Positions 30,004 to 51,811 of a DNA stretch of 52,284 nt are shown here, piece by piece. Each line of letters starts with the position of its first letter. Within the stretch, counting starts at the first letter, position 1. Both the position numbers and the translations under genes were made by a program. Below the pieces are notes generated by a model. That model searched no databases. It was given only the letters and a program-made list of their open reading frames with translations, and was not told the DNA's origin. Origin of the DNA: Patescibacteria group bacterium (lineage in GTDB: Bacteria > Patescibacteriota > Microgenomatia > UBA8517). The DNA lies in NCBI GenBank assembly GCA_042571305.1, contig JBHPHS010000003.1, positions 1 through 52,284 of the forward strand, given 5' to 3'.

Positions 30004-30007
30004 CTAA

Positions 30008-30092: not shown

Positions 30093-30146
30093 CCTACATT
30101 TTCTTCTTCAGTCAATACCGAAACTGAGGTATAATGAGGGCTTAAG

Positions 30147-31066: not shown

Positions 31067-31080
31067 TACAAAACGTATTC

Positions 31081-31167: not shown

Positions 31168-31179
31168 CACATACCTCTG

Positions 31180-34835: not shown

Positions 34836-35513
34836 GTGGGGTATTTTGGAAAATTGGAAGAGAAAGAAAAAGTGCTGAGGCTTAGAAAAAAGGGCCTTTC
34901 GTATAATGAGATTAAAAGAGTTGTGCCCGTGTCAAAAAGTAGCTTGAGCAGGTGGTGCCGAGACGTTTATATAACTCCAGAACAGGTATTTAGATTGTAT
35001 AAAAATAAACTGGAAGGTTCAGAGCGAGGGAGGATAATTGGAGCTAAAAAACTACAAGAAGCACGGATTGCCAGGACACTTGCGCTTTATAAAGAGGGAA
35101 GGAGGGATGTGGGGAAGATAAGTAGACGGGATTATTTTATTGCTGGGATTGGGCTGTACGCAGGGGACGGGATTAAAGGAGATAAAATGGTGGGATTTTC
35201 TAACTCTAATCCTAAAATGATAAAGTTTATGTCTGGTTGGTTACGAAGTTTTTGCAGCGTTCCTCTTGAGAGAATGTCGTGCCAGATATGGATACACGAC
35301 AATCTGGATGAAACTAAAGCTAGGATATTTTGGTCTAGAATTACAGGAGTACCTCTAAAAAGATTTAACAAAAGTTACATAGCAAGAAATAAGATCGAGA
35401 GTAATAAAATAAGGAAGAATATTCATAAATACGGAGTTTGTACCATAAACATAACTTCCGCTGAGATACAAAGAAAAATTTTAGGTTGGATGGGTGGAAT
35501 ACTTGATACTTAA
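34836..35513 (+). CDS. HTH + LAGLIDADG-like homing-endonuclease-related protein
   Basis: N-terminal HTH LRKKGLSYNEI...VSKSSLSRW; IAGIGLYAGDG helix followed by VGFSNSNPKMIKF. Confidence 0.65.
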   Translation: MGYFGKLEEKEKVLRLRKKGLSYNEIKRVVPVSKSSLSRWCRDVYITPEQVFRLYKNKLEGSERGRIIGAKKLQEARIARTLALYKEGRRDVGKISRRDYFIAGIGLYAGDGIKGDKMVGFSNSNPKMIKFMSGWLRSFCSVPLERMSCQIWIHDNLDETKARIFWSRITGVPLKRFNKSYIARNKIESNKIRKNIHKYGVCTINITSAEIQRKILGWMGGILDT

Positions 35514-35546: not shown

Positions 35547-35810
35547 TCCCCGGTAGCTCAGCGGTAGAGCAGGAAGCTGTGTTAGCAGCTCTTGGTGGAA
35601 ACATCAAGATGAAAAGTGGGTGAATTCAGGGAACGCTCCAATTAGTTTGGAGTAACCGTGAGCCAAGCCCCGATTTTTTCAGGGAAGGTGCAGAGACTAG
35701 GTGATTACACCCTTAGAGCGCCCACCACCTAAAGTTAAAAAAGCTATGGTGATGAGATAGTCCATATAGTAACTTCAAGGTCGTAGGTTCGAATCCTACC
35801 CGGGGAGCCA
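35547..35810 (+). tRNA. tRNA-Asn(GTT), split by an intron (exons 35547-35580 and 35770-35810)
   Basis: Joined exons: TCCCCGG TA GCTC AGCGGTA GAGC A GGAAG CT GT|T AA CTTCA AGGTC GTAGG TTCGAAT CCTAC CCGGGGA G CCA. Confidence 0.93.
35581..35769 (+). ncRNA. Group I intron (189 nt, no ORF) between anticodon positions 35 and 36
   Basis: P1 AGCTGT/GCAGCT with U.G at the splice site; P2 TCTTGGTG-GAAA-CATCAAGA; P AATTCAGGGAA; Q AACCGTGAGC; R CAGAGACTA; S GAGATAGTCC; terminal G at 35769. Confidence 0.92.
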
Positions 35811-35831
35811 GTGGCGCAACAAAAGATGTGG

Positions 35832-36365
35832 TTAAGAATTTGCAAGCCTTTCTAGTTCGGGAATCAAGGTTTCAAATTTTCCATTAATATCAAAGACATA
35901 TGGCCTATCTGGTATAGGGGGAATTCTTGGAGGTGTGCTACCCATCATCGTAAAGTAAAGAATACAGTTATTTTTCAATTCTCTTTCCTCGACACTAAAA
36001 CTTGCATTGAATTTATTTTTTAATTCACGAAAGCCTGTTTTTGTAAATGCTTTCCAGAAAACTTCATCAAATTTTTTCATTACTTCATATTGAGGTTGTG
36101 TTACCCCAAGACTTTCAAGGTAAGGTGTTAAAATAGGACTTTCCAGATAAGATGACGCTTCCCCTTGTTTTCTAAGCAATCTAGCTAGAGACTTTTTATC
36201 CACTGTTTCTTCTCTTGGTGTATTATTATTCTGTGTATATTCTACTATCTCCAGTTCATCGGGGCTGATTGGGTGTTTTTTAAGCTTAAGAACTGGCAGC
36301 CAGTCACCACCTCTGTCTTGGTAAAGTAGTTGTGCAGAGTCTGAGCCATTCTCTTTCTTACTCAT
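35832..36365 (-). CDS. Hypothetical protein (first unit after tRNA-Asn)
   Basis: 177-aa ORF, no recognised motif. Confidence 0.65.
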   Translation of the reverse strand: MSKKENGSDSAQLLYQDRGGDWLPVLKLKKHPISPDELEIVEYTQNNNTPREETVDKKSLARLLRKQGEASSYLESPILTPYLESLGVTQPQYEVMKKFDEVFWKAFTKTGFRELKNKFNASFSVEERELKNNCILYFTMMGSTPPRIPPIPDRPYVFDINGKFETLIPELERLANS

Positions 36366-36669
36366 AATTTATTCTGAATTGGTAGTGTATCACAGCAGCT
36401 TGAGAAGTCAACTTAAAACCCTTTACCCTTTATGCTATCAATTTGCTTTCTTCTTATTTAAGCCGCTATTCTCAGGTTCGAAAACTTGATTTGGAAGTGT
36501 TGAGAGAGAAGATGAAATATATTCAGGAGGAATAAGAAGTTACGCAGTAAATTATTAATAATTATATGTAATATTTCAAACGGACAATTGGTTCCTCACA
36601 TAGTCCACAAGAGCGAGCTTTTAGCTTTTGATATATTTACTCCAGGCTATTTGATATAATTCATACCTT

Positions 36670-36900
36670 ATGCCAATGGACCCTAAATATGAAGATTTGG
36701 AACTCGACATTGTTGAAGCTCGAGGTGCAGGACGTGTGTGGCAAGAAATGGCTAAGAACCCTGCCCTTCCAGGTTCAAAAACTGCACAAACTTTCCCTAA
36801 CGGAATCCCCAGAAAAGTATTAGAAAGAAAAATGAAAAAAACAAAAGAAAGAATAAATGCAGAAATTACTCAAGTTACAAGAAGAGAAAGAGAGGGTTAA
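36670..36900 (+). CDS. Small hypothetical protein
   Basis: 76-aa ORF preceded by TGATATAAT. Confidence 0.6.
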   Translation: MPMDPKYEDLELDIVEARGAGRVWQEMAKNPALPGSKTAQTFPNGIPRKVLERKMKKTKERINAEITQVTRREREG

Positions 36901-36950
36901 CTTAATATCTTTGTAGACTCCTCTTTTCCCGTCTGATATTATTCAAATTA

Positions 36951-37601
36951 ATGAAATTACTTTTAACTTCAGCTGGGTTAACAAATAAATCTATAGCTAT
37001 TGCTTTTAACAAACTGGTAGGACTTCCTAAAGAAAAAATCCATATTGCATTTATTCCAACCGCAGCCAATGTTGAAGAAGGAAATAAAGATTGGCTAATT
37101 GATGATTATAATAACCTTAAAAAACAAGGCTACGGATGCATAGATATTGTTGACATTTCTGCAATTTCTCCAAAGGTTTGGAAACCAAGATTAGAAGATG
37201 CAAATGTTTTATTTTTTGGAGGTGGTAACACATTTCACTTAATGCACTGGTTACAAAAATCTGGATTAGAAAAACAATTGTCAGAATTGCTAAAAACTAG
37301 GGTTTATGCAGGTATAAGTGCGGGTGGATGCATCGCTGGTCCAACTATTTACAACTCTGTTCAAAACTTATTTGATGAAAAGTATGAGTTGCGCATTAAA
37401 GAAGGTTTGGGTTTAGTTGATTTTCAATTTGTCCCTCATTTAAACTCTCCTTACTTTAAAAAAATAAGAATAAAATACCTAGAAGAAGCAGCAAAGAAAA
37501 TCACTGAACCAGTATATGTTGTGGACGACAATACTGCTGTAAAAGTTGTTAATGATAAGGTAACCGTAATATCAGAAGGTATTTGGAAAAAATTTAACTA
37601 G
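36951..37601 (+). CDS. Peptidase E / S51 (class I glutamine amidotransferase-like)
   Basis: MKLLLTSAG, AFIPTA, FGGGNTFHL, GISAG, VPHLNS. Confidence 0.9.
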   Translation: MKLLLTSAGLTNKSIAIAFNKLVGLPKEKIHIAFIPTAANVEEGNKDWLIDDYNNLKKQGYGCIDIVDISAISPKVWKPRLEDANVLFFGGGNTFHLMHWLQKSGLEKQLSELLKTRVYAGISAGGCIAGPTIYNSVQNLFDEKYELRIKEGLGLVDFQFVPHLNSPYFKKIRIKYLEEAAKKITEPVYVVDDNTAVKVVNDKVTVISEGIWKKFN

Positions 37602-37670
37602 GAAATAGTTCCCCGCATAGTCCACAAGAGCTAGCTAGCTTCGGTAATCTATATCAAACCTCAGTAAAAG

Positions 37671-37892
37671 TTACTCTGTAGGGACCACTGTTGTATACAT
37701 GTCTACGTAATTTACGACACACTCCTTTTTACCTCGGCATAGCTTATTCTGGTAAAGTGGGCAAGAAACATATCCTTTTTCTTCATCGACAATAGTTAAC
37801 TCGACAGGGTTTGAGAAGTCTTGTTTAAAATCTATTGATGCCTTACCCCTTTTTACTTTTGTAACAGGCGCACACTCGGTCCTTAATCCCAT
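37671..37892 (-). CDS. Small Cys-containing hypothetical protein
   Basis: 73 aa, 4 Cys (CP.....LC.....C); fills one repeat-bounded unit. Confidence 0.55.
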   Translation of the reverse strand: MGLRTECAPVTKVKRGKASIDFKQDFSNPVELTIVDEEKGYVSCPLYQNKLCRGKKECVVNYVDMYTTVVPTE

Positions 37893-38023
37893 GTACGGAT
37901 TCTAACACCTAAATTATATTTGTCAAAAGCCAACCTTATACAAGTAGTTCCTCACATAGTCCACAAGGGCGAGCTAGAGGTAGTTTGATATATTTATTCT
38001 TCTTGTTTTGATATAATTTCTCT

Positions 38024-38266
38024 GTGAAAGAATTAAAACCTTTTCCACCACAAGGACTAACAACCATAGATTGGTGTAATATTGATGTGGCAAAACCCTG
38101 CCCCTATAAAAGTGGAATAAAGAACTGTGGTATTAAAAAACGATTGTCTGAATTTTCTTTAAAAGGAGGGTCAAGAAAAAAAGAAGCTGAAAGATTGTGG
38201 AATTTGGCTCAGTCTAATCCAAATGTATTCAATGACTTGTGTATAGGGTCGTTTTTTAGGTATTAA
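38024..38266 (+). CDS. Small Cys-containing hypothetical protein
   Basis: 80 aa, 4 Cys; TGATATAAT 6 nt before GTG; fills one unit. Confidence 0.55.
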   Translation: MKELKPFPPQGLTTIDWCNIDVAKPCPYKSGIKNCGIKKRLSEFSLKGGSRKKEAERLWNLAQSNPNVFNDLCIGSFFRY

Positions 38267-38306
38267 CAAACCAGTTCCTTACATAGTCCACAAGGGCGAG
38301 CTAGGT

Positions 38307-38915
38307 TCAATTTTTACTTTTGAAGAGAGGGTGTTTTCCCGGCTTTACTAATGTCCCGCTGGAGTTCGACCATAGAATGGTCTCATCTTTTAATTTAAGA
38401 GATTCCCAAAGTGGGTCATCCGGTGCTGTTAGCTTACTAGTCGTCTCCACCACTTCTCTTAAGGTGGCAGGCAAATTTCCTAATTCATATTGCATTAAAG
38501 ACACACCGGTGAAGAGGGCTGTGGTTGAAGAGATTTTAATGGGTGGTACTAAATCATAATCATGACTACCAAAAATTCCACAAAGTTGTATTACTGCAGT
38601 TTCTTGCTCTTTATTCACCTCAAGTGTACGCCAATGATTACCAGGAGTAAAACCATCAGGGGGTGTGTCAAAGAGGACGGTCTTACTAAGATTTGGAAGC
38701 CCAACCTGGTCTACAATCTCTTTTAAAGAGATGGGTTTTATTCCTGATTCCCTAGCCAACGACAAGTTGAATTCAGTATTTTGATAGGGGTAAATAAGAC
38801 GTATCTTTTCATACACCCTTCTATCCACTTTTACAGAAAAAGGTCCAATAGATATCCTTAATGGTTTTGGCTCGCGTCTGAACCCAAATAATTCAAAAAT
38901 ACTTTCTTTAGACAT
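38307..38915 (-). CDS. Hypothetical protein
   Basis: 202-aa ORF filling one unit; stop 4 nt from the repeat. Confidence 0.7.
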   Translation of the reverse strand: MSKESIFELFGFRREPKPLRISIGPFSVKVDRRVYEKIRLIYPYQNTEFNLSLARESGIKPISLKEIVDQVGLPNLSKTVLFDTPPDGFTPGNHWRTLEVNKEQETAVIQLCGIFGSHDYDLVPPIKISSTTALFTGVSLMQYELGNLPATLREVVETTSKLTAPDDPLWESLKLKDETILWSNSSGTLVKPGKHPLFKSKN

Positions 38916-39107
38916 CTGTGTTTTAAATTGTTGCTCGTACTATAACGGTTATGAAAACATATTTCAACTTTAGCTTGTTTTATTAATATAATAAGTTCGC
39001 AACATAGTCCACAAGAGTGAGCTTAGTGTAACAATATTGTTAAGGTTGTTGGTACATGGGCTTTTTTGGTTTGTTTAGTTTCTCTTTTGTGGTAGTATAC
39101 TAAATTT

Positions 39108-39476
39108 ATGACAGAGCGATTAATAAAAGCCATGTTTGAAGTTGACCCCCGAAAAGCTCCAGTGGCTAGGTTTTATAAGGGACTTGCATGGGCTGTAAAA
39201 AATTGTGGACTAGGTGTTGAGTTGACTGTTCCTGTAACAGATGAGCAGAAGTTATTGCCTTTTGCATCATCTAATCCAAACGTGCGAGTTCGTATACCAG
39301 AAGATGTTGTTAAAAAGATACTTGAATCTGGTGATGTTCAGCAAGAGGTAGCAAAAATTGTTAGAAGGGGTGGTGTAAAACGTGGCCTTGGTGAAATTGG
39401 TGCAGAAGTAGTTTGTTTAGGATTGGCTAAAATTTTAGCCGAAGATGAAGATACTAAGCTGGACTTTCAAATATAG
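39108..39476 (+). CDS. Hypothetical protein
   Basis: 122-aa ORF with TATACT 6 nt upstream. Confidence 0.65.
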   Translation: MTERLIKAMFEVDPRKAPVARFYKGLAWAVKNCGLGVELTVPVTDEQKLLPFASSNPNVRVRIPEDVVKKILESGDVQQEVAKIVRRGGVKRGLGEIGAEVVCLGLAKILAEDEDTKLDFQI

Positions 39477-39625
39477 AATCTTAAACCACAAGAGCGAGCT
39501 GGACTTGTCTTAATCTACTCACTTTGATTAATTTATAACTCTACTGGTATACTTCAATAATGAAACTAGCCGAGAAAGTTGAAGATTAAATAGTCTCGGG
39601 CTTATACTGGTTACATGGAGAAATA

Positions 39626-40366
39626 ATGAAACAAGATTCACCAGAACATGCAAAAAGTTACGAGAGACAAGCGGCTTATTATGATGCGATATATGAAGCT
39701 CAAGGAAAAGATTACAAGAAAGAATCAGTTCAAATTCATGAAGTAATCGGAAAACATAAAATATCAGCAGGAAATAAACTGCTTGATATTGGATGCGGAA
39801 CAGGAGGCCATTTTCCTTTCTTAAAAGAATGGTACTCAGTTGAAGGTCTGGATATTGACCAGCACATGCTTCAGGTGGCAAGGCAAAGACTTCCAGACAT
39901 CACCTTTCATCAGGGTGATATGGTTGACTTTGATTTAAACAAACAGTTTGATGTGGTTACTTGTTTATTTAGTGCTATTGGTTATGCCATGACCATTCCG
40001 AATCTACAGTCTGCAGTTAAGTCTCTTGAACACCACACAAAACCTGGGGGTGTTGTGGTTGTTGAGCCTTGGTTTTCTCCCGAACAGTGGAAAGAAGGCC
40101 GACCCTCTTCTGTTTTTGTTGACAAGCCAGACATGAAATTGGCCCGTATTAATATAAGCGAGAGAAGAGGAAACGTTTCTATTGTGAATTTTCATTTTCT
40201 AGTGGCTACACCAGGTCAAGTTGAACACTTTACTGAGTTGCATGAAATAGGCCTCTTCACAAAAAATGAGTATATGGAGGCTTTTGAGAAAGTAGGCCTG
40301 GAAACAACCTTTGACCCAAAAGGAATTACAGGTAGAGGTCTTTATGTTGGAGTAAAAATATCTTAA
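39626..40366 (+). CDS. Class I SAM-dependent methyltransferase (TylM1/DesVI-like N-methyltransferase group)
   Basis: YYDAIY...KDY..E, LLDIGCGTGGH, GDMVDF, FDVVTCLFSAIGY, PGGVVVVEPWF, GRGLYVG. Confidence 0.9.
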   Translation: MKQDSPEHAKSYERQAAYYDAIYEAQGKDYKKESVQIHEVIGKHKISAGNKLLDIGCGTGGHFPFLKEWYSVEGLDIDQHMLQVARQRLPDITFHQGDMVDFDLNKQFDVVTCLFSAIGYAMTIPNLQSAVKSLEHHTKPGGVVVVEPWFSPEQWKEGRPSSVFVDKPDMKLARINISERRGNVSIVNFHFLVATPGQVEHFTELHEIGLFTKNEYMEAFEKVGLETTFDPKGITGRGLYVGVKIS

Positions 40367-40457
40367 GCTGATAAGAAGTTCCTCACATAGTCCACAAGAG
40401 CGAGCTAAGAGCCTGCGGACTTGCCGTTTGGGGAACAACAGTGATATATTAGAACCC

Positions 40458-40718
40458 ATGGAAAGAGAACTAGAGGCAAAACTCATGTCTTCTGTTGTAA
40501 AAGCACATAATAGACGGGAGGCAATAGCCAAGTTTATTGAAGAAAACACAGACAAATTAACCACAGAGGAGCTAGTAGAAATCACAATGATGGGTATTGA
40601 CCTGGTTGTTGCTGACGCTGTGGAGGACATAGAAAAAACTGGCCTAAGAGTTAGAACGGTCTCACTAAAAGACAATCTTAAAAAGATTTTAGAAATTAGC
40701 AGAGGGAATACTCCTTAA
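40458..40718 (+). CDS. Small hypothetical protein
   Basis: ORF track 40428-40718; ATG at 40458 follows TGATATATT. Confidence 0.6.
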   Translation: MERELEAKLMSSVVKAHNRREAIAKFIEENTDKLTTEELVEITMMGIDLVVADAVEDIEKTGLRVRTVSLKDNLKKILEISRGNTP

Positions 40719-40777
40719 AGTTCTAAATCCATCCCACCCCGCGAGCTCATAGCGTAACAATTTGGTATACTTCAGTT

Positions 40778-41452
40778 ATGAACCTGAGAGGAAAAAACGT
40801 CGTGCTTTTCGGAGCCTCGAGCGGATTGGGAAAATCCCTAGTAAAACTTCTTTCAGTTGAGGAGGTAAATTTAATCCTCCTCTCAAGAGGAATTGGTTTA
40901 ACAAATTTCCCAGACACTGTAAAAATACCTTGTGATATTCGAAAAGAAAACGAAATTGTTGCTGCTTTCAAAAAAATAGATAGTAAATTTGAAAAAATTG
41001 ACCTACTTATAAACTGTGTTGGAATTGGTTTGGTTAAAGATTTAAGAGAAACAGGAGGAAGTGAAATAGACAACGTAATCAATACAAATCTAAAAGGCGC
41101 AATTATTGTGGCACGCGAGGCATATAAAAGAATGTCTCAGAAAAGTTCTGGTTACATTGTAATTATTTCGTCTACTTCTGGTAGAAAAGTAAGAGCTATG
41201 GAAACAGTGTATTGTGCAACAAAGTGGGGATTAAGGGGTTTTACAGGCAGCTTACAGTTGGCTGGTGAGGAGAATGGGGTGAAAGTTACTGGGGTTTATC
41301 CTGGTGGGATGAAGTCTAAGAATTTTTGGTCTATCGTCCCTGGCAAGGATATAAAAGATTACCTCGAACCTGCATTTGTAGCGGAAAAAATTATTAATTT
41401 AGTAAAGGGTAGATATAAAAAAGAACTTGTTATCGAAAGAGCAAGTTCCTAA
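40778..41452 (+). CDS. Short-chain dehydrogenase/reductase
   Basis: GASSGLG, YCATKWG (YxxxK), YPGGM. Confidence 0.93.
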   Translation: MNLRGKNVVLFGASSGLGKSLVKLLSVEEVNLILLSRGIGLTNFPDTVKIPCDIRKENEIVAAFKKIDSKFEKIDLLINCVGIGLVKDLRETGGSEIDNVINTNLKGAIIVAREAYKRMSQKSSGYIVIISSTSGRKVRAMETVYCATKWGLRGFTGSLQLAGEENGVKVTGVYPGGMKSKNFWSIVPGKDIKDYLEPAFVAEKIINLVKGRYKKELVIERASS

Positions 41453-41507
41453 CATAGCCCACAAGAGCAAACTGAGTAACCTTAAGCTAAATCTGTTAAA
41501 ATAATTT

Positions 41508-41852
41508 GTGTTTCAAAAAGTAAGACAATTAACTTCACAAACTGAACCATATTGGTCAATTATTTTTGTTCCTATTTGGCAAGAATTGTTGTTTAGGTAT
41601 GTACCCTATTTTATATATTTAAAGTTAAATAATTTCTGGTTAATAGGTATTATCTCCTCTTTAGTGTTTACATCTATACATTGGTATTTCAAAAAATGGT
41701 TTATTGTCTTTTCCTTCTTTGGAGGTATACTTCTATGGATAATTATTGTTAAGTTTGGTTTGCTACCTACAATCATTATTCATTCAACAATTAACTTGTT
41801 ATTGAATGCTTCTGGGTTAAGAAAAAGGGCTGAAAAAAAGTTCTCTACATAG
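41508..41852 (+). CDS. CPBP/Abi (CAAX-protease-like) intramembrane protein
   Basis: PIWQELLFR, FTSIH, IIIHSTIN. Confidence 0.8.
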   Translation: MFQKVRQLTSQTEPYWSIIFVPIWQELLFRYVPYFIYLKLNNFWLIGIISSLVFTSIHWYFKKWFIVFSFFGGILLWIIIVKFGLLPTIIIHSTINLLLNASGLRKRAEKKFST

Positions 41853-41912
41853 TTTACTAGCCCCTGCCAATTTTTTAATTTCCTTTTATGTGGCTCCTGC
41901 TATAATCTACAT

Positions 41913-42353
41913 ATGGCAATAAAATTTGAGTTTCGTGACATGACTAAAGCCGAGTTTAAACGAGAGCAGGCTGCTTTTGATGAACACGGACAAGGGTTTG
42001 GAAATCCACCAGATAAACAAAAACGTTTTGGGTTTGTTGCAACAGACAAAGGGAAATTTGTAGGCTGCTCAAGCGGGTTGGCTCAAAAGAACAATAATAA
42101 ATATGGCAAATATTTTTATCTAAGTGACCTTTTGGTTGAGAAAGATTACAGGAAACTTGGTTATGGCAAAAAACTTTTAGAATTACTGGAAAACAAAATA
42201 AAACAACTGGGGATTGACTATATTTGGACATGGACTGCAGAGTACGAAGCTAGCACTTTTTATCAGAAACATGGATATCAAGTTTTTACTACATTTGATA
42301 AATATTACCAGTCAGGTGATGCCAGGGTTGGACTTCTTAAGAAGCTGGTGTAA
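41913..42353 (+). CDS. GNAT-family acetyltransferase
   Basis: LLVEKDYRKLGYGKKLL, ASTFYQKHGY. Confidence 0.93.
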   Translation: MAIKFEFRDMTKAEFKREQAAFDEHGQGFGNPPDKQKRFGFVATDKGKFVGCSSGLAQKNNNKYGKYFYLSDLLVEKDYRKLGYGKKLLELLENKIKQLGIDYIWTWTAEYEASTFYQKHGYQVFTTFDKYYQSGDARVGLLKKLV

Positions 42354-42388
42354 ACAAGTTCCTCACATAGTCCACAAGAGCGAGCCAA

Positions 42389-43168
42389 TTATATTCTTTG
42401 ATTAAATGCTTTTTTGAACTCTTCTTCAGTTTTGAATATATTTAGCGGAATATTCATATTTCTCAATAGTCTTCGAAGTGTTTTTTCGTGGGCACAATTA
42501 TCTATTGATATTTTCTTAAAATCTTTTGAAAGTACACTTTCTGATAAAGAAGGGAACTTTGTTTCACCAGCAAGAGCGTTTAAAGTCACCTGTGTTTCTT
42601 TGTCTATTATTTTTGCACTATAAGCTGCCAAGTCAATATTCTCTGTTTCACAAGCGAGTTTCAATTTGTTGTAAATAGATTTAAGTTCTTCATAAAATCC
42701 GATAAGTATTTTGGAGTCTGGTTGGGTTTTTTTATCTTTTTTTTCTTTAATCTTTAAATCTGGGCTTAAAATGGGAGCCGTTTTGTTTCGAATGTTAGTT
42801 TTTAATGTGGCTAACAAATTTTTATATCTTTGTAGCTCCTTATCTGTAGAAAAATATACCACTTTCCCGTCTAAAAAAATTGACTGCAAGGGCCCCTCTA
42901 ATTTAGAAATTCTTTCTGCTCTATCCCAAGAGACGGGCCACAAGTCATATCCAACCCCTTTTATAATGAACTGATAAGATAGCCGATAACCTTTTTCCGT
43001 CCTGGGAATAAAAAAGAAATCAATATCAGAATATTTATGTATATTTCCTTTAACATAGGAGCCATAGCAAACGAGCACCGAAACATCATTGGCAAAATCA
43101 CTTTCTATCTTTTTGATAATAGTTTCGAGAATCTTACTATTCCGAATTACTTTATTATTTAATCTCAT
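42389..43168 (-). CDS. Pol-beta-superfamily nucleotidyltransferase (kanamycin-NTase-like architecture)
   Basis: YGSY..G..HKYSDIDF motif; helical C-terminal domain. Confidence 0.85.
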   Translation of the reverse strand: MRLNNKVIRNSKILETIIKKIESDFANDVSVLVCYGSYVKGNIHKYSDIDFFFIPRTEKGYRLSYQFIIKGVGYDLWPVSWDRAERISKLEGPLQSIFLDGKVVYFSTDKELQRYKNLLATLKTNIRNKTAPILSPDLKIKEKKDKKTQPDSKILIGFYEELKSIYNKLKLACETENIDLAAYSAKIIDKETQVTLNALAGETKFPSLSESVLSKDFKKISIDNCAHEKTLRRLLRNMNIPLNIFKTEEEFKKAFNQRI

Positions 43169-43303
43169 AAACTAATCAACACACAAGACATGGTCTAGAT
43201 GACTAATTGAGTATAGCAGAGGTAAGTAATTTCTATACTCATTAATCGGTCAAAAGCAAAACCAGTTCCTCACATAGTCCACAAGAGCGAGCAGACTACT
43301 TAG

Positions 43304-43348
43304 CTTCAAAAAACCATACTAAATTGTTCGAACTCAGTTAGGATTTAA
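43304..43348. repeat. Second repeat family, copy 1 (45 bp, central GTTCGAAC palindrome)
   Basis: CTTCAAAAAACCATACTAAATTGTTCGAACTCAGTTAGGATTTAA; 39/45 identical to 47643-47687. Confidence 0.85.
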
Positions 43349-43351
43349 TCT

Positions 43352-44263
43352 TTATAACTTCTTAAAACTTTTTATTATTGAAGATATGGTTTGTCTGTAA
43401 GGCCAAGTAATTGGATATGCGTAGCCCACTAATCTTAAGTCTGTACTGCTGTTTGTAGGTTCTCTTAGCTTTAATTTGTATTCGTAGACTGGGGGGTCTG
43501 TTACTTGTAGTTGTATTGAACTTTGAGACTCCAAAGTATCAAGTATTTTTTCTGTTAAAAAAACAGTGGTAGAAGTGAGGTAGGCAATTTCCCCTTCATC
43601 CATTTCAATTTTACTAAATTCTGGGGGAGTATATCCAGGCCTCGAATCCTCAAAGAAAAAACCGTCAATTGGGTCCCCCATACTAATTATGTAGTTGTCA
43701 CCCAGGGGTATTTCACAGATAGTCTCTGAGTCTGGTGTTCTTTCGTCAATGCATTTTTTCAGATTATTAACACATTCTACATCCTCATTATTTTGGGTAA
43801 CCATAACATAGTCGGCAGTTGAATCATATTCCCTTGGTAATTCATAAACTGACATAAAACTCGGGTATTCAAATTGGTATTTACCATCAGAGGTTATAAA
43901 AACGTTTGTATTAAAAGGCTTGTCAACGAAGTCCCTTTCAGATATCACTGAAGACAGTTTTGTGAGATTCATTAGAGTACTTATATAAGTAGGGTTTACT
44001 CCCAAATTAGTATTAAAGTTACTATCTGACTTTTCTTGGTTTAGTGTCCCATTCGTTTTTAATGATGGAGTTGGTTGAGTTTTTGTCACCTGTTTATTTT
44101 GTTGAATGTATTGGTAACCAAAATATCCCGCCACCGATAAAGTTATAATCTGTAGTACGACAAGTGAGATTAGCAAAGCCTTCGGATTGCGAGGTTTTAC
44201 GGGCTCAACTAGTGGCTGTGAAGAGGAAGCCTTAGGAGTACTTGGTGGTAGGTTGTTTTCCAT
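43352..44263 (-). CDS. Membrane-anchored hypothetical surface protein
   Basis: Pro-rich N-terminus, single TM, YQFEYPS pattern, ends IIKSFKKL (PsbP-like pattern, tentative). Confidence 0.7.
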   Translation of the reverse strand: MENNLPPSTPKASSSQPLVEPVKPRNPKALLISLVVLQIITLSVAGYFGYQYIQQNKQVTKTQPTPSLKTNGTLNQEKSDSNFNTNLGVNPTYISTLMNLTKLSSVISERDFVDKPFNTNVFITSDGKYQFEYPSFMSVYELPREYDSTADYVMVTQNNEDVECVNNLKKCIDERTPDSETICEIPLGDNYIISMGDPIDGFFFEDSRPGYTPPEFSKIEMDEGEIAYLTSTTVFLTEKILDTLESQSSIQLQVTDPPVYEYKLKLREPTNSSTDLRLVGYAYPITWPYRQTISSIIKSFKKL

Positions 44264-44376
44264 AATAAAATTTTAGCACATTTTCTAGATGGTTATAAAC
44301 AAGTTTCTCACATAGTCCACAAGAGCGAGCTAGCTTCACAAAACCTATTCTCCCGTGTTGTAGTAAAATAAAGACA

Positions 44377-44922
44377 ATGAAAAAGAAAAGAGGCCCTTGG
44401 GTAGTGGTTGGTACCAAAACCATTTATCAAAATCCATGGATAAAGGTCAGAGAAGACAAGATTATTAGGCCTGATGGTAAAAAGGGAATTTTTGGTGTGG
44501 TTTCAATGGTGCCTGGTGTTTCTGTTTTACCCATGGACGATAAAGGTGATGTTTATTTGACCAAGGAATATCACTATGGTGTGGAAAGAATAACCATTGA
44601 GGCCGTAAGTGGCGGAATTGGCAACAAAGAAACAAAAATTCAGGCTGCAAAACGAGAACTTAAAGAAGAAACTGGTTTAACAGCAAAGAAATGGACAGAT
44701 TTGGGTGTAGTTGACCCCTTTACAACAGTCGTCGTCTCACCTAATTACATGTATCTTGCTCAAGACCTGACCCATCTAAAAAGAAACCCAGAAGGAACAG
44801 AAAAGATAACAGTATTTAAAATTCCCTTTAAAAAAGCAGTGGAATGGGTTATGGAAAATAGAATAACTCACTCGGCTACAACAACTCTAATATTGAAAGT
44901 CAATAATTACCTCAATAATTAA
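44377..44922 (+). CDS. NUDIX hydrolase (ADP-ribose pyrophosphatase-like)
   Basis: YQNPWIKVRED..IRPDG, AAKRELKEETG. Confidence 0.92.
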   Translation: MKKKRGPWVVVGTKTIYQNPWIKVREDKIIRPDGKKGIFGVVSMVPGVSVLPMDDKGDVYLTKEYHYGVERITIEAVSGGIGNKETKIQAAKRELKEETGLTAKKWTDLGVVDPFTTVVVSPNYMYLAQDLTHLKRNPEGTEKITVFKIPFKKAVEWVMENRITHSATTTLILKVNNYLNN

Positions 44923-45090
44923 TAAACAAGTTCCTCATATAGTCCACAAGTGCGAGCTAATTACCCTATAATTTGATTTATCCCCTATTCTTCAGGTATA
45001 ATTGCCTCAATTTTCTAATCAGAAGCTAGTTAATTGCTTTTAGTTTTTGAGAAGAAAAAATAAAAACTTGCACTTTAAAAGGAGGCTAAG

Positions 45091-45474
45091 ATGAAAAAAA
45101 TAGTAAGTATAATTTTATTGGTTGGCATTGGAGGGGGAATAATTTTCCACACTATAGAAAACAAAGTCTATGCAACAGCAGTTTTTCTTACATATGTCTT
45201 CGTTTTGGGTGTAGGAAAAACACTTATTACACGTAGAATAAAAGAACAAAAAATATGGGAGAGATTTTTTTCCAATATGTGGAATGTTCTCAAACTTGAA
45301 CACTTTACCTCAAGCAAGGAATTCTATGACTACATTTATAACGACCTGCCACCAATAAGACAAAGAATACGAACAAGGCATCTGCAAATTTGCCCAATCT
45401 GTAAAGAAAGATTGGAAGAAATTAAGAAATGGATGTCCGATGAAAACGAAAAGTTCAAAATGAAAAAACAATAA
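45091..45474 (+). CDS. Two-TM protein with C-terminal zf-HC2-like motif
   Basis: IRTRHLQICPICKERL (HxxxCxxC). Confidence 0.6.
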   Translation: MKKIVSIILLVGIGGGIIFHTIENKVYATAVFLTYVFVLGVGKTLITRRIKEQKIWERFFSNMWNVLKLEHFTSSKEFYDYIYNDLPPIRQRIRTRHLQICPICKERLEEIKKWMSDENEKFKMKKQ

Positions 45475-45636
45475 AAAGTGCAAGAAAAAAACTCTTTGAA
45501 AGAGAAACACAATTAAGTTATAAAGTGTTTTTCAAGTAGGAGAGTTTTTTATTGGCATAAAAGGTTCCCCACATAGTCCACAAGAGCGAGCTTAGTGTAA
45601 CAAGAAATTTATGCTCCAAAATGATACAATTCAAGC

Positions 45637-46125
45637 ATGTCTGAAAGAACAGATAAATTACTAACAGATGGCTTGTCTGAGGGTTACGCAGGTGTAAAAA
45701 AACCTGAAAATATTCAAAGGTCTGGATTTCCAGGAAAAGCCAATGACTATATAAATTCAGAAGGAGGTCACTATCATGATGAATGGTTTGCTGATGATAG
45801 TGGTGGAGGACAGGAACTAGTAAAAGAAGGGGAAGAACAATTTACTAGACTCTATGGCGGTGGTGTAATTCCAGTTGAAGAACTACAAAAGTTAGGTCTT
45901 ACAACAAAAGATGTTATCTTTCGTTTAATAACAAGCGTAAATGAACTCAAGGAAAAAACTAGACTATATGAACCTTGTTCACTAGAACTTCCAGATGGAT
46001 GGAATTACAAGTATGAAATTATCAAAAAAAGTAAAGAAGTCCCCCTAACTGTTGGTTATGAATCAATTGAATTTAATGGCAGGGAGGTTTTTGCTCACGC
46101 CCACATACTTTCCCCAATAAAATAA
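45637..46125 (+). CDS. DUF5680-like hypothetical protein
   Basis: GYAG, YHDEWF..GGGQELV, LYGGG, GYESIEFNGREVF. Confidence 0.6.
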   Translation: MSERTDKLLTDGLSEGYAGVKKPENIQRSGFPGKANDYINSEGGHYHDEWFADDSGGGQELVKEGEEQFTRLYGGGVIPVEELQKLGLTTKDVIFRLITSVNELKEKTRLYEPCSLELPDGWNYKYEIIKKSKEVPLTVGYESIEFNGREVFAHAHILSPIK

Positions 46126-46196
46126 GTCTCGCATAGTCCACAAGTGCGAGCTAGCTGTTTCATTAACTTCAGTTTTTGTTATAATTCCAGAAAACT

Positions 46197-46496
46197 ATGG
46201 TAGAAAAGGAACAACCGTTGCATCCAATACAAGAAAGAGTGAGGGAGCTTTACAAGCACAACGGTTGGGATACCGACCCAACACTGCTTCTTCTAGCTAT
46301 GCAAGAAGAATTAGGCGAGTTAGCGGCTCGCTGGTTAGCGGAGCACCCAGGATACGAAAAATCTATTAAAGATACGGACCCAATACCTGAAGAGGTAGGT
46401 GATTTAGTTCACCTGGTTTTGGCTTTTTGTAACACCCAAGGAATTAACTTTGAGGAGTGTGTGGATGCGACGATTAAAAAAAGAAGAAAAAAGTAA
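46197..46496 (+). CDS. MazG-like nucleotide pyrophosphohydrolase
   Basis: EELGELA...EEVGDL, CNTQGINFE. Confidence 0.88.
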   Translation: MVEKEQPLHPIQERVRELYKHNGWDTDPTLLLLAMQEELGELAARWLAEHPGYEKSIKDTDPIPEEVGDLVHLVLAFCNTQGINFEECVDATIKKRRKK

Positions 46497-46618
46497 GTTT
46501 TCCTCTAAACCCAAAACAAGTTCCTCACATAGTCCACAAGAGCGAGCCCTTAGCGTAACAGAAATGTAGTTAACAAGGGCATGTGGAATACCCAAATGAT
46601 ATAATTCCTTGATTTACC

Positions 46619-47182
46619 ATGGAAAGGTTACTGGACAGTATTGAGTTTGACCAGGAAAAAATTGAAAATAAAGCTAATGGGATTGCCAAAAAAATTAGTG
46701 AACTCAAAACTTCCAATAAACAATACACGCTTTTTCTTTATGACTTCAGTTTTGGAGGGAGCGATGAAGTATGGTGTCGTCCTTATTTAGATGATGTTAA
46801 AGACCATCATGATAGAGTAATTATTCAAGATTTACATATTGATTCAAGTATGCCTTTGTATGAACAGGAAGAAAAGGTTATTAATACTCTAAAAAAGGCA
46901 TTGAAGGTTAATGAGAAAAAGACGCCCCACTATGCAGAATTCGATACACTTGGTATGGGATTAAAATGGGACGGCCATGATTTGTACGAAATTCATAATG
47001 TATGGAAAACTAAGCTTTCAGGCGTATACTGGCACTTTATTGAGATAGGAAACATCTATGGTGCTCCAAATATTAATGCTATTACAGTAAACGAGGATTA
47101 TAGCAGGGAAGTGAACAAGCCTATTATAGATATTATTCGAAACGCAAAGTTATTTACTCTACGTCAAATACTAAAACCGTGA
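46619..47182 (+). CDS. Hypothetical protein
   Basis: 187-aa ORF filling one unit, TGATATAAT upstream. Confidence 0.7.
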   Translation: MERLLDSIEFDQEKIENKANGIAKKISELKTSNKQYTLFLYDFSFGGSDEVWCRPYLDDVKDHHDRVIIQDLHIDSSMPLYEQEEKVINTLKKALKVNEKKTPHYAEFDTLGMGLKWDGHDLYEIHNVWKTKLSGVYWHFIEIGNIYGAPNINAITVNEDYSREVNKPIIDIIRNAKLFTLRQILKP

Positions 47183-47386
47183 ATAAAGCTTCTCACATAA
47201 TCCACAAGAGCGAGCTAGGTGAAACTTAATATACCCAAGTTAGCCTTGTCTAGAACGCCAACAGAAACTAGCCTTAAATCGCCTCTAATAAAATTCCTAA
47301 GTTGTAAGTAAATAAAATTGTAAAAGCCCAGTTTAGTGGTTTTTTTGATTTGTGGTAAGATTGAACAAAGGAGGGGGTGGAGCGAA

Positions 47387-47560
47387 ATGGGCGGTTATGC
47401 AGTTGGTTTTGTTGTTGGTATTGCTTGTGGTTTTGCCATTGGACGAAAACAGAAACCTTGGTCGGAATTAACTGATATACAGAAAAAGATTATAGTTGGG
47501 ATTACAGTTCTCCTTGTGATATTAGTTTTACTTACGACATTTGGCGTTATCTTTTATTAA
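47387..47560 (+). CDS. Small two-TM membrane protein
   Basis: ATG at 47387 after AGGAGG/GGAG; GRKQKPWSELT between two TMs. Confidence 0.65.
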   Translation: MGGYAVGFVVGIACGFAIGRKQKPWSELTDIQKKIIVGITVLLVILVLLTTFGVIFY

Positions 47561-47642
47561 AACGGATTTCAATTAGTAGCTAAGGTTAGGCAAGGCTTTA
47601 CTCATGCTATTTTCTCTCTTGATTCCTGTACTAACTTAAAAT

Positions 47643-47687
47643 CTTCAAAAAACTGTACTAAATCGTTCGAACCCAGTTAGAATATAA
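47643..47687. repeat. Second repeat family, copy 2
   Basis: CTTCAAAAAACTGTACTAAATCGTTCGAACCCAGTTAGAATATAA. Confidence 0.85.
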
Positions 47688-47744
47688 GCTTCGAAGCCTG
47701 TTTTTTTATTGCCGAAAATATGTTTGATGTAGTAGTAACTATTT

Positions 47745-48965
47745 TTACTTACTTGCGAAAAATTCTTTAACCAAAGGGTAGGCAGCCGTATCATAAATCT
47801 TCCCAGCCCCCAACAAACTATGAACTGTAAATCCAACTGCACTATTGCCATATTTGTCAAAAGCTGTTAGTCCCACCTTGTAAAGTTCTTCTATTGAATA
47901 ATCTGTTTTTACCTCACCAAACATTTGCATTTGATCACTTGCATTATTAACCATAAACTCCGCCCCTATCCACGGAATCCCATATTCTTTGGACATCTTT
48001 CTCGCCTGTACGCTAGATAGTTGCACATCTCTAGTAACTTGTTCTGGACTAGGAGCACGGCCACAAGCAGTAACTCCAAATATATCAGCATTGACCAGCG
48101 ATACACCTTCATAATTACTCCAATTGCTAAATCCTCCCATTTTATACATCACCTTGCCTGAGTATAGTTTTCTAATTTGAGGCACCACTCTCGCATAAAA
48201 GGCATTCATTACTTCCCGCGTTTTTTCTACTGGATAATTATTGGAGTCCATAATCGCTTCTATCTGATTAACCGGCACAAAGTAATCAACATTATATTTT
48301 TCAGCTATTGGAGCTAGCTCTAAAGAAACCGCCTCAAGTCTTCTTGACAAATCTTCAGGTGTAATATTATGTTCCTCCATCCCTCCATCCTCAAACTGAA
48401 CATAATCAGGGAACAAAACTACAGATAAGCCTTGCTGTTTAGCCAATAAAATATTATGAACCAAAGCCCGTTTTGATTTATCTTGACTGTAATCTCTTGG
48501 TTTATCATAGCCCAAATACCACAGCTTCAGTTCTCCCTCCCTAAGCCAATAATTAGCATGAATAAATTGTGTGTTCACTCCCAAGTCAGCCAGTACATCA
48601 GAAAAATACAATACTTCAATCAAATTCGGTAAAGTTCCATAAGTTTGTGTAGCTTTTATATAAGTGGGATATTTTCTTGTTAGCGATTCATTCATTTTGT
48701 CTAACTTTTTCCAACTAGGAACCTTATAATCAAGTTTTACAAAAGTCTCATGGTCATTATTATCTACATTTTCCGAAATCCAGGCTTTCCTGGCTTCAGG
48801 ATCTTCTGGTGGGGGGCCAACAGTATTTGCCAAAAAACTACCAGGCAGATCCCCTGGTCCAAATAAAAAATTTCCACCAACTAAAATAACCACTCCAATC
48901 AAAATAACAACAACAATCAGCCCTAAATGAACAAAACCTTTTTTATTAGCAGTATTTTTAACCAC
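47745..48965 (-). CDS. Membrane-anchored glycoside-hydrolase-like (TIM barrel) protein
   Basis: KGF..L N-terminal TM; LGVNT, AKQQGLSVVLFP, AEKYNVDYFVPVNQIE, IRKLYSGKV, PWIGAEF resemble clan-A/GH113-like folds. Confidence 0.55.
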   Translation of the reverse strand: MVKNTANKKGFVHLGLIVVVILIGVVILVGGNFLFGPGDLPGSFLANTVGPPPEDPEARKAWISENVDNNDHETFVKLDYKVPSWKKLDKMNESLTRKYPTYIKATQTYGTLPNLIEVLYFSDVLADLGVNTQFIHANYWLREGELKLWYLGYDKPRDYSQDKSKRALVHNILLAKQQGLSVVLFPDYVQFEDGGMEEHNITPEDLSRRLEAVSLELAPIAEKYNVDYFVPVNQIEAIMDSNNYPVEKTREVMNAFYARVVPQIRKLYSGKVMYKMGGFSNWSNYEGVSLVNADIFGVTACGRAPSPEQVTRDVQLSSVQARKMSKEYGIPWIGAEFMVNNASDQMQMFGEVKTDYSIEELYKVGLTAFDKYGNSAVGFTVHSLLGAGKIYDTAAYPLVKEFFASK

Positions 48966-49050
48966 TTTACTAACTCAGTATATGAATATTTATTTATCTT
49001 TGTAAAGTATCATTACTTTTAATATATTAAACATAGCCGTCTATTCGGTT

Positions 49051-50454: not shown

Positions 50455-50486
50455 GCCATGCCTCGGTCTTGTTAGTAACTTTCCAG

Positions 50487-51014: not shown

Positions 51015-51118
51015 AATAGTATTTAAATGATTCAGTTTGCAACAGCGGCATGGGTTTCTGGAAAGTAAGTTCTGAAACCGTCCTTATAAGCGAGCTAGGT
51101 TTAAAGTATAATTGTTGT

Positions 51119-51798: not shown

Positions 51799-51811
51799 AG
51801 TATAACATGCC

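What the first reader, a model, noticed from the sequence alone, without database searches (positions are those of the whole stretch)
35786..35822. The tRNA-Asn 3' end looks like the entry site (attB/attL) of the array
Seen: the tRNA ends TCCTACCCGGGGAGCCA; the repeat ends TCCACAAGAGCGAGCTA, with the same TCC-N8-GAGC spacing. Copy 42358 ends GAGCCA like the tRNA, and divergent copy 40719 (ATCCCACCCCGCGAGCT) matches the tRNA (ATCCTACCCGGGGAGCC) at 13/17. A right-arm motif TAGYGTAACA follows copies 38995, 40719, 45564 and 46520, and a 9/11 match (TGGCGCAACAA, 35812-35822) follows the tRNA at the same 3-nt offset from GAGC as at 40719 and 46520. Known: tRNA 3' ends are common integration targets. 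Inference: crossover at or near GAGC; new units enter at the tRNA and push older ones outward, which fits two very divergent copies being the most distal (51068, 51302).
Basis: partly seen in the sequence, partly recalled or inferred. Interest (0 to 1): 0.85.

Follow-up and report, generated by a model that had tools for sequence, protein, structure and literature searches.

The report
tRNA-Asn-anchored gene cassette array
The 3' end of an intron-bearing tRNA-Asn gene in a tiny Patescibacteria-type genome is the fixed first junction of an array of about 18 small gene cassettes, each ending in a ~32-base tRNA-end-like site, which looks like an integron-style gene-capture platform without an integron integrase.

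Summary
The window (a whole 52-kb contig of a 595-kb, 66%-complete genome) holds 18 same-strand copies of a ~32-nt site (36586-51099). They separate mostly single-gene cassettes and start 0.8 kb after a tRNA-Asn gene that carries a group I intron. The composite GAGC-N3-5-GYGYAACA occurs 5 times in the genome: 4 array junctions and the tRNA-Asn end.

Diverged versions of the site (all GTTC..TCC-N8-GAGC) lie downstream of tRNA-Asn, on the same strand, in 9 other genera. In G007 the tRNA's GAGC is followed by the same 21-nt cassette leader that follows a repeat's GAGC in this window and in a metagenome contig. Six genomes share an identical tRNA-Asn 3' exon and diverge exactly after GAGC. One site class, and a 45-nt "scar" in G087, are near-copies of the tRNA 3' end. 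One cassette gene (83% nt identity) sits at different array positions in two genera.

Not shown:
- The recombinase. No integrase is adjacent; only two core Xer-like tyrosine recombinases were found.
- The polarity of insertion.

The sites have no hairpin, so these are not attC sites or integrons. Verdict: an integron-like, tRNA-seeded cassette platform, a new variant of known kinds.

The parts
34836..35513 (+). 225-aa ORF between rpoD and tRNA-Asn: N-terminal HTH plus a probable single LAGLIDADG-type domain. Not found at this place in relatives and probably not part of the array machinery.
   Evidence: Weak HTH Pfam hits only. 345 homologues, some labelled Patescibacteria or Microgenomates. 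AF2 model pLDDT 86.5. VIA-align best domain matches are LAGLIDADG endonucleases and WhiA, Z 6.1-8.0, which is middling. No tblastn hit in 30 relatives' loci.
35547..35580 (+). tRNA-Asn(GUU) 5' exon. The end at the splice site was read by eye and may be off by 1-2 nt.
   Evidence: 24 of 24 to the intronless tRNA-Asn of G008.
35581..35785 (+). Group I intron in the anticodon loop.
   Evidence: Rfam RF00028, 35571-35785, 69.3 bits, E=1.3e-15. Homologous introns occur in tRNA-Asn of relatives.
35786..35810 (+). tRNA-Asn 3' exon. GAGC (A72-G73-C74 region) at 35805-35808 is the left half of junction 0, the attB/attI-like site.
35809..35822 (+). Right arm of junction 0 (CAGTGGCGCAACAA), the 5' leader of cassette 1. 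Same motif class as after sites 39022, 40746, 45591 and 46547.
   Evidence: 5 occurrences in the genome, all at junctions.
35809..36618 (+). Cassette 1: 177-aa ORF of unknown family on the - strand (35832-36365) plus the first site (36586-36620).
36586..47219 (+). Main run of 17 sites, all + strand: 36586, 37603, 37942, 38269, 38990, 39477, 40373, 40716, 41441, 42353, 43260, 44298, 44925, 45559, 46124, 46515, 47183. Spacing 327-1038 nt. They delimit cassettes 2-17: S51 peptidase, methyltransferase, SDR, CAAX protease plus GNAT, nucleotidyltransferase(-), NUDIX, MazG and nine ORFs without a Pfam match.
   Evidence: ORF stops lie 0-25 nt before the site for + ORFs and 3-60 nt after it for - ORFs.
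40716..40759 (+). Divergent, tRNA-end-like site plus right arm (AAGTTCTAAATCCATCCCACCCCGCGAGC TCATAGCGTAACA).
   Evidence: 22 of 30 to the tRNA end, best in the genome. R2 E=0.009.
47216..51095 (+). Last unit, 3.9 kb with four ORFs: small membrane protein, 406-aa secreted protein(-), GT4 glycosyltransferase, 175-aa ORF(-). It ends in a class III site (51063-51099).
   Evidence: The class III site is shared with G007, G107, G084 and G009.
51343..52270 (-). Conserved distal flank: treble-clef zinc-finger gene (51343-51798) and SET-domain gene (51812-52270).
   Evidence: Pfam. Homologues lie 1-8 kb downstream of rpoD/tRNA-Asn in relatives, and just beyond the arrays of G008 and G123.

Best explanation
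The region is a gene-cassette array seeded at the 3' end of tRNA-Asn.

What a cassette is. Each mobile unit is a short leader (often with an extended -10-like TTTGATATAAT box), one gene (rarely two), and a ~30-nt site of the form GTTC-N5-7-..(G/A)TCC-N8-GAGC. The site is a diverged copy of the T-loop-to-acceptor 3' end of tRNA-Asn.

How it most likely works. Inferred: a trans-acting site-specific recombinase joins the cassette's site to the GAGC of the tRNA gene, or of a resident site. It exchanges strands at or just after GAGC, inside or next to the CCA position. Three consequences follow:
- The tRNA stays intact.
- Each cassette keeps its own site at its 3' end.
- Cassettes pile up in one orientation.
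In layout this is an integron, with the tRNA end playing attI and the sites playing attC. In site origin it is classical tRNA-targeted integration.

Shown here: the anatomy; the junction at GAGC; recurrence of the tRNA-Asn linkage across genera; hypervariability of the arrays; one cassette shared between genera.

Inferred, not shown: the circular intermediate; the recombinase (candidates are the two core Xer-like tyrosine recombinases, since no array-linked integrase was seen); entry at the tRNA-proximal end.
For: 1. Anatomy. 18 same-strand sites, none on the - strand, confined to this locus. Cassettes have varied accessory functions of the kinds I recall as typical of integron cassettes.

2. 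The junction motif GAGC-N3-5-GYGYAACA occurs 5 times in the genome: 4 array junctions plus the tRNA end.

3. Independent genome. In G007 the tRNA-Asn GAGC is followed by TTGAGATAGTTTGATGTATTT. The pattern GAGC-N2-9-AGTTTGATRTATTT hits only twice in 125 family genomes, at that tRNA end and at window junction 37971, with 0 in the reversed control. It also follows a site in metagenome contig L025.

4. Profile R2 finds related sites in 31 of 124 other family genomes. In 9 of them a hit shares a contig with tRNA-Asn: G007, G008, G107, G120, G088, G123, G036, G084, G017. In all 9 it lies 0.65-15 kb downstream on the same strand.

5. Six genomes of four genera share an identical tRNA-Asn 3' exon and diverge exactly after GAGC.

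6. The sites derive from the tRNA end. Class IV (GTCCTTTAGGGGGAGC) is conserved in 3 genera with unrelated flanks. G087 has tRNA end, then 45 nt, then a second partial tRNA 3' end.

7. Different site classes mix within one array.

8. Arrays of four same-genus pairs share no cassettes, while the distal flanks are syntenic.

9. One cassette gene is 83% identical in nt over 618 nt between G088 (second gene after the tRNA) and G084 (>17 kb from the tRNA). In each it is bounded by sites or site remnants. For comparison, rpoD of a same-genus pair is 81%.

10. Assemblies often break just 3' of tRNA-Asn.
Against: - No recombinase is linked to the array. There is no PF00589 hit in the window. The one tyrosine recombinase in this 66%-complete genome is Xer-like (IntI model 121.8 bits against a cut-off of 265).
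- The second family-wide tyrosine recombinase is core (118 of 124 genomes) and so is not array-specific.
- None of the 150 listed PF00589 rows shares a contig with a tRNA-Asn row. Another 133 rows were not listed.
- The sites have no inverted repeat or fold, which is unusual for tyrosine-recombinase core sites.
- The tRNA end and the main repeat share only TCC-N8-GAGC.
- In 22 of the 31 genomes with R2 hits the linkage to tRNA-Asn could not be checked: 21 because the sites lie on other contigs or no tRNA-Asn was located, 1 (G127) ambiguous. In G121 a three-site array lies on a contig with no tRNA-Asn.
- The class (c) right-arm pattern is not enriched convincingly outside G000. It gave 16 hits against 8 in the reversed control, and 12 of the 16 were inspected with none site-like.
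- No excised circle, empty site or population variant was observed, and no sequencing run was listed.
- The promoter scan shows no enrichment: 50 found against 45.7 +/- 6.9 expected.
Confidence: 0.65

Rival explanations
1. No site-specific enzyme is involved. Cassettes are swapped and amplified by general homologous recombination between the ~32-nt repeats after DNA uptake, and the tRNA merely marks a tolerant intergenic hotspot.
For: Sixteen near-identical 32-nt repeats in direct order are adequate substrates for short-homology recombination. No dedicated recombinase was found.
Against: The tRNA end shares only TCC-N8-GAGC with the repeats, yet carries bona fide cassette leaders at the exact GAGC offset in two genomes. 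Arrays mix site classes too different for homologous pairing. Divergence starts exactly after GAGC in six genomes.
Confidence: 0.13
2. The array is the decayed remains of successive full-size tRNA-Asn-targeting integrative elements (phage-like, or tycheposon- or CIME-like). These lost their integrases, leaving cargo genes separated by old attR copies.
For: Some sites are near-copies of the tRNA 3' end. Tandem accretion at tRNA genes, with partial tRNA copies between elements and newer elements next to the tRNA, is described for tycheposons (passages read in bioRxiv 10.1101/2020.12.28.424599).
Against: Units are 327-1038 nt and hold one gene, and no integrase fragment was seen in the window by Pfam on 30 ORFs. 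Sixteen copies share a sequence that is not the tRNA's. The same non-tRNA site classes are conserved across genera next to unrelated genes, which argues for function, not decay.
Confidence: 0.12
3. The repeats are RNA-level or regulatory signals, for example 3'-end processing or stability elements that mimic a tRNA 3' end in a long transcript starting at the tRNA. They are not recombination sites.
For: Sites lie directly after stop codons of + strand ORFs. Many junctions read GAGCCA, like a tRNA 3' end.
Against: No conserved pairing (0 pairs). Sites keep the + orientation next to - strand ORFs (cassettes 1, 3, 5, 11, 12). This reading does not explain the hypervariable gene content, the shared leaders at the tRNA's GAGC, or a cassette shared between genera.
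Confidence: 0.06

Closest known systems
Integrons, and CALINs (clusters of attC sites lacking an integron integrase)
   Same: One-orientation array of mostly single-gene cassettes, each followed by its own recombination site. One fixed primary site at the head of the array, with most ORFs reading away from it. Varied accessory functions. Site classes mix as in mobile integrons. The exchange point leaves almost the whole site with the upstream cassette.
   Different: No IntI: the best tyrosine recombinase scores 121.8 against a 265 cut-off on TIGR02249. The sites are ~30 nt, sequence-conserved and without hairpin potential, whereas attC sites (recalled) are 57-141 nt imperfect palindromes recombined as folded single strands. 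The head site is a tRNA gene end, not an attI beside intI. Many cassettes seem to carry their own promoter-like box, which is an inference.
tRNA-targeted integrative elements that accrete in tandem: tycheposons of Prochlorococcus, and (recalled) CIME/ICE accretion in streptococci
   Same: A tRNA gene seeds a variable island, the tRNA stays intact, and units are separated by tRNA-3'-end-like repeats. Variability is highest next to the tRNA. The model of new arrivals pushing older ones outward is stated for tycheposons (passages of 10.1101/2020.12.28.424599).
   Different: Those elements are kilobases long and carry their own tyrosine or serine recombinase, and their repeats are true partial tRNA copies. 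Here the units are single genes without a recombinase, and the dominant site has diverged from the tRNA (12 of 32 by eye; no profile match).
IMEX elements that exploit XerCD at dif (recalled from knowledge; no paper read)
   Same: Integrase-less elements that use host housekeeping tyrosine recombinases and stack in tandem at one chromosomal site. Only Xer-like recombinases were found in these genomes.
   Different: The target here is a tRNA gene end, not dif. The sites show no dif-like two-arm palindrome (read by eye). Use of Xer is pure inference.

Membership tests
Integron | Integron integrase gene (IntI, with its extra domain) beside the array | tested here: not met
   The one PF00589 hit in the genome lies on contig C1, so there is none in the window. 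That protein scores 121.8 bits on TIGR02249 (cut-off 265) and best fits Xer models. Caveat: the genome is 66% complete. Relatives with arrays also have no adjacent recombinase.
Integron | attC sites: imperfect inverted repeats (R''-L''/L'-R') able to fold as a hairpin | tested here: not met
   RNAalifold on 22 aligned sites gives 0 pairs and 0 kcal/mol. All 18 copies are on the + strand, so there is no inverted copy of the conserved core. No Rfam family other than tRNA, tmRNA and the intron was found.
Integron | Array of small cassettes in one orientation, each with a 3' site, starting at one primary site | tested here: met
   Eighteen units. Seventeen of them are 327-1038 nt with 1-2 ORFs. 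Sites are all on the + strand, and the first junction is at the tRNA end.
tRNA-targeting integrative elements (tycheposon-like accretion) | Junction inside or at the 3' end of a tRNA gene, with the tRNA kept intact | tested here: met
   Cassette leaders start right after the tRNA-Asn GAGC in G000 and G007. Six genomes with an identical 3' exon diverge exactly after GAGC.
tRNA-targeting integrative elements (tycheposon-like accretion) | Direct repeats that are partial copies of the target tRNA | tested here: inconclusive
   True for class IV sites, window copy 40716 and the G087 scar. The dominant class I repeat is not recognisably a tRNA copy.
tRNA-targeting integrative elements (tycheposon-like accretion) | Element-encoded integrase | tested here: not met
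   No recombinase domain in 30 ORFs of the region, nor near the arrays of five relatives.
IMEX / Xer-dependent elements | dif-like site bound by XerC/XerD, and integration at chromosomal dif | not tested
   The dif site of these organisms is unknown and no dif model was run. Only the presence of two core Xer-like recombinases was shown.

The most novel reading that the evidence does not exclude
Patescibacteria of this family run a previously undescribed gene-capture system. The 3' end of tRNA-Asn serves as the universal docking site. Single-gene cassettes carry ~30-nt unstructured sites derived from the tRNA end. The reaction is done in trans by housekeeping Xer-type recombinases, or by an unknown enzyme. 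This would give ultra-small genomes an integron-like, hypervariable accessory locus without an integron integrase or attC hairpins.
Probability: 0.4. Interest if true: 0.9.

Novelty: new variant of a known kind. Interest (0 to 1): 0.78.

Why it matters
Candidate Phyla Radiation bacteria have roughly 1-Mb genomes and few recognisable mobile elements, so how they exchange accessory genes is largely open. A compact cassette platform, hard-wired to one tRNA gene and recurring in at least ten genera, would explain three things:
- a hypervariable locus;
- repeated assembly breaks beside tRNA-Asn in metagenome-assembled genomes;
- the spread of small defence-, detoxification- and nucleotide-housekeeping-type genes.

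It would also add a second, mechanistically different route to integron-like architecture: double-strand, sequence-specific, tRNA-mimicking sites in place of folded attC sites. It offers short, well-defined sites (GTTC..TCC-N8-GAGC) for testing which recombinase acts on them. Five full-text searches found no description of such arrays. Subscription journals and supplements were not searchable.

Tried and rejected
- attC/integron reading: rejected. No fold and no IntI.
- The 406-aa ORF at 47745-48965 as a recombinase: rejected. It has a signal/membrane anchor, no recombinase domain, and only a sub-threshold OrfA hit.
- The repeat as a copy of another tRNA or tmRNA 3' end: rejected. Across the 35 ARAGORN genes, the best ungapped match to a 33-nt consensus is 17 of 33.
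- HUH/IS200-type transposase: no PF01797 hit in the genome (genome 66% complete).
- A large serine recombinase exists on contig C10 but is unlinked to the array. It was not pursued.
- Exact-pattern scans of public collections. The metagenome scan gave 34 stretches, of which only L025 (4 copies) is a related array. The genome scan gave 27 single, GC-rich stretches that I read as chance matches.
- Strict repeat pattern in 60 relatives: none.
- Loose regex for arrays in 20 rpoD-linked loci: nothing. Only the profile models found the diverged sites.
- Class (c) right-arm pattern outside G000: 16 hits against 8 in the reversed control. Twelve were inspected and none is site-like.
- Promoter and terminator scan: no enrichment.
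- Public sequencing runs: none was listed, so no read-level test of excision or variants, and read laying was not used.
- Foldseek of the P0002 model against the PDB: only poor OmpA-like matches, TM about 0.3. phmmer against PDB sequences: 0 hits.
- Array-specific second integrase: rejected, because it is a core gene.
- Polarity test in same-genus pairs: uninformative, because the whole arrays differ.
- Supplementary files of papers were not consulted. The tycheposon preprint's supplementary examples of tandem elements could bear on the comparison.

Full report
**Setting.** The window is the whole contig C3 of an assembly of 595,062 bases in 26 contigs, 66% complete, with GC about 37%. Homologues of one of its proteins come from records labelled Patescibacteria, Microgenomates or Berkelbacteria. 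Together with the genome sizes of relatives (0.4-1.8 Mb), this points to a Candidate Phyla Radiation bacterium; that placement is an inference.

The gene order upstream of the finding is tRNA-Ser, dnaG (31895-33679), rpoD (33689-34768), a 225-aa ORF (34836-35513), then tRNA-Asn. ARAGORN does not call the tRNA, because a group I intron (Rfam RF00028, 69.3 bits) interrupts the anticodon loop. The exons read as tRNA-Asn(GUU). The 5' exon is identical over 24 nt to the intron-less tRNA-Asn of relative G008.

**The array.**
- A 23-nt core occurs 16 times within 5 mismatches, always on the + strand, from 36599 to 47196, and nowhere else in the assembly.
- A sequence profile built from copies of several genomes (A2/R2) and run without filters finds 18 copies at E<0.01 between 36586 and 51099. 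All are on the + strand.
- The copies delimit 17 units of 327-1038 nt and a last one of 3.9 kb. Most hold one ORF whose stop lies just before the site. Five units (1, 3, 5, 11, 12) hold a - strand ORF while the site stays on +.
- Gene content: S51 peptidase, SAM methyltransferase, SDR, CAAX protease, GNAT, nucleotidyltransferase, NUDIX, MazG, a GT4 glycosyltransferase and many ORFs without a family.
- The aligned sites have no consensus secondary structure (0 pairs).

Every stated string is present.
- The 13-of-17 match between copy 40719 and the tRNA end is not significant by itself, since 7 places in the genome reach 13 of 17. The 30-mer from the tRNA's ATCC to the flank's AACAA, however, has its best non-self match among 1.19 million positions exactly at that junction, in register (22 of 30; next best 20). 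The choice of the 30-mer was post hoc.
- A cleaner test is the composite GAGC-N3-5-GYGYAACA. It occurs five times in the genome on both strands: four array junctions and the tRNA-Asn end. GYGYAACA alone occurs 50 times.

**Related arrays elsewhere.**
- The exact repeat is absent from 60 relatives of other genera.
- Among 61 stretches from two public scans, only one 3.2-kb metagenome contig (L025) holds a related array. It has 4 copies, different genes, and shared leader motifs.
- Profile searches changed the picture. R1 and R2 find diverged sites in 28 and 31 of 124 other genomes of the family.
- Reading the loci shows four site classes, all fitting GTTC-N5-7-..(G/A)TCC-N8-GAGC, and they mix within single arrays:
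  - class I, as in this window;
  - class II, ending ..GTCCATCAGGTGGAGC (G120, G121, G123, G088);
  - class III, ending ..ATCCCAGTAAGCGAGC (G107, G084, G009, G007, and the window's distal copy 51063);
  - class IV, GTTGCAGAATAAGTCCTTTAGGGGGAGC (G007, G120, G084).
- Class IV is conserved over about 30 nt in three genera with unrelated DNA on both sides. It resembles the tRNA-Asn end (..ATCCTACCGGGGGAGC).

**Linkage to tRNA-Asn.** I mapped tRNA-Asn in the same 125 genomes (plus ARAGORN).
- In 9 other genomes of 9 genera an R2 hit lies on the same contig as tRNA-Asn. In all 9 it is downstream on the same strand, at 0.65 to about 15 kb: G007, G008, G107, G120, G088, G123, G036, G084, and G017 (the last a weak hit, E=0.018).
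- In 21 genomes the two lie on different contigs or tRNA-Asn was not located. One case (G127) is ambiguous.
- G121 has three sites on a contig that ends 2.3 kb beyond them with no tRNA-Asn. Its congener G120, syntenic there, has the tRNA 650 nt before the first site.
- Many contigs end within 300 nt 3' of tRNA-Asn: G143, G001, G027, G107:C30, G068 and G070, and G009:C15. That is what strain heterogeneity at this point would cause. This is a rough observation, not a test.

**The junction.**
- In G007 the tRNA-Asn gene ends ..CCCGCGGAGC and is followed at once by TTGAGATAGTTTGATGTATTT. The same leader follows a site's GAGC in L025 (24 of 25 identical) and at window 37971.
- The pattern GAGC-N2-9-AGTTTGATRTATTT has exactly two hits in the 125 genomes, those two places, and none in the reversed control. 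The genes behind the three leaders are unrelated: an MFS transporter, an 80-aa ORF and an 85-aa ORF.
- Six genomes of four genera share an identical tRNA-Asn 3' exon, and their sequences diverge from the first base after GAGC.
- In G087 the tRNA end is followed after 45 nt by a second partial copy of the tRNA 3' end, like an att duplication around an almost empty unit.
- Because class I sites could not replace a tRNA 3' end, the exchange must lie at the 3' edge, at or just after GAGC. The tRNA is then untouched and each cassette keeps its own site. This last step is an inference.

**Turnover and mobility.**
- Twenty loci downstream of rpoD in relatives contain no homologue of the window's ORFs between 35.8 and 50.4 kb. 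The 175-aa ORF, the zinc-finger gene and the SET gene at the far end do have homologues near rpoD/tRNA-Asn.
- The zinc-finger gene is also the first conserved gene beyond the arrays of G008 and G123.
- In four same-genus pairs (G120/G121, G023/G087, G144/G142, G008/G125) similarity stops at the tRNA. In three of them it resumes only beyond the variable stretch; G125's contig ends 1.7 kb past the tRNA.
- One gene is 83% identical in DNA over 618 nt between G088 (second gene after the tRNA) and G084 (more than 17 kb from the tRNA). In both it starts just after a site or a degenerate site remnant and ends at one. For scale, rpoD of the same-genus pair G120/G121 is 81% identical. I did not compare rpoD of G088 and G084 themselves.

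**The enzyme.**
- Nothing recombinase-like lies in or beside the array.
- The assembly has one tyrosine recombinase, which is Xer-like. It also has a large serine recombinase on another contig and no Y1 HUH transposase.
- Array-bearing relatives have the Xer-like gene and a second tyrosine recombinase of about 300 aa. Neither is near the array.
- The second one is present in 118 of 124 family genomes, so it is a core gene.
- None of the 150 listed PF00589 rows from the family shares a contig with a tRNA-Asn row; 133 rows were not shown.
- The recombinase therefore remains unknown. Use of the Xer pair in trans is the simplest guess and is untested.

**The neighbouring ORF.**
- The 225-aa ORF just upstream of the tRNA sits where an integron would have intI, so I checked it.
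- It has weak HTH hits only and 345 homologues of about 228 aa. A confident model has pLDDT 86.5. Residues 95-225 of that model align best with LAGLIDADG homing endonucleases and WhiA, at a middling Z of 6.1-8.0. Foldseek gave nothing useful.
- It has no counterpart at this place in 30 relatives' loci.
- I read it as a probable free-standing homing-endonuclease-like gene, perhaps tied to the intron, and not as the array's recombinase.

**Comparison with known systems.**
- In layout this works like an integron, but it fails two defining features: IntI and folded attC sites.
- In site origin and tRNA seeding it works like tRNA-targeted integrative elements that accrete in tandem. The tycheposon preprint (passages read) describes elements separated by partial tRNAs, with newcomers next to the tRNA. 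Here, however, the units are single genes without integrases, and the dominant site is no longer a tRNA copy.
- Five full-text searches returned no description of such arrays in Patescibacteria.

**Verdict.**
- The system is best called a new variant of known kinds. A fair chance remains that it is a distinct gene-capture mechanism.

Noticed in passing
window 35547-35810: tRNA-Asn(GUU) is split by a ~205-nt group I intron in the anticodon loop, so ARAGORN misses the gene. Homologous introns interrupt tRNA-Asn in several relatives (L074, L082, L088, L090), while others (G008, G007, G020) have intron-less genes.
   Followed up: partly
window 34836-35513: A 225-aa ORF with an HTH and a probable LAGLIDADG-type domain lies directly upstream of the intron-bearing tRNA. 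It belongs to a large family (345 hits) of ~228-aa Patescibacteria proteins without a Pfam family, often found on very short contigs. It may be a free-standing homing endonuclease gene.
   Followed up: partly
window 43304-43352 and 47643-47691: A 49-nt sequence (86% identical) lies just 3' of the stop of two - strand ORFs, 43352-44263 and 47745-48965. A related stretch follows a site in L025 (3079-3130). It may be a shared terminator or cassette end for reverse-oriented genes.
   Followed up: no
window 27733-28095 and 29192-31168: A tmRNA gene (146 bits) and a cluster of tRNA-Ser and tRNA-Arg genes lie upstream of dnaG-rpoD. Rfam calls one extra tRNA (29289-29373, 38.6 bits) that ARAGORN does not.
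   Followed up: no
L112 (G120:C77) 3187-3469: The RNase P RNA of a relative scores on the archaeal RNase P model (86.6 bits against a gathering score of 84), not on a bacterial one.
   Followed up: no
L141 reverse strand (G087:C12), just 3' of tRNA-Asn: The tRNA-Asn end is followed after 45 nt by a second partial tRNA 3' end (GGTTCCCTTACCGGGGGAGC). It looks like an att-type duplication around an almost empty unit.
   Followed up: partly
rows; G009:C15 (L123): In at least seven draft genomes of the family the contig ends within 300 nt 3' of tRNA-Asn. This suggests that strain-level heterogeneity at this point breaks assemblies.
   Followed up: partly
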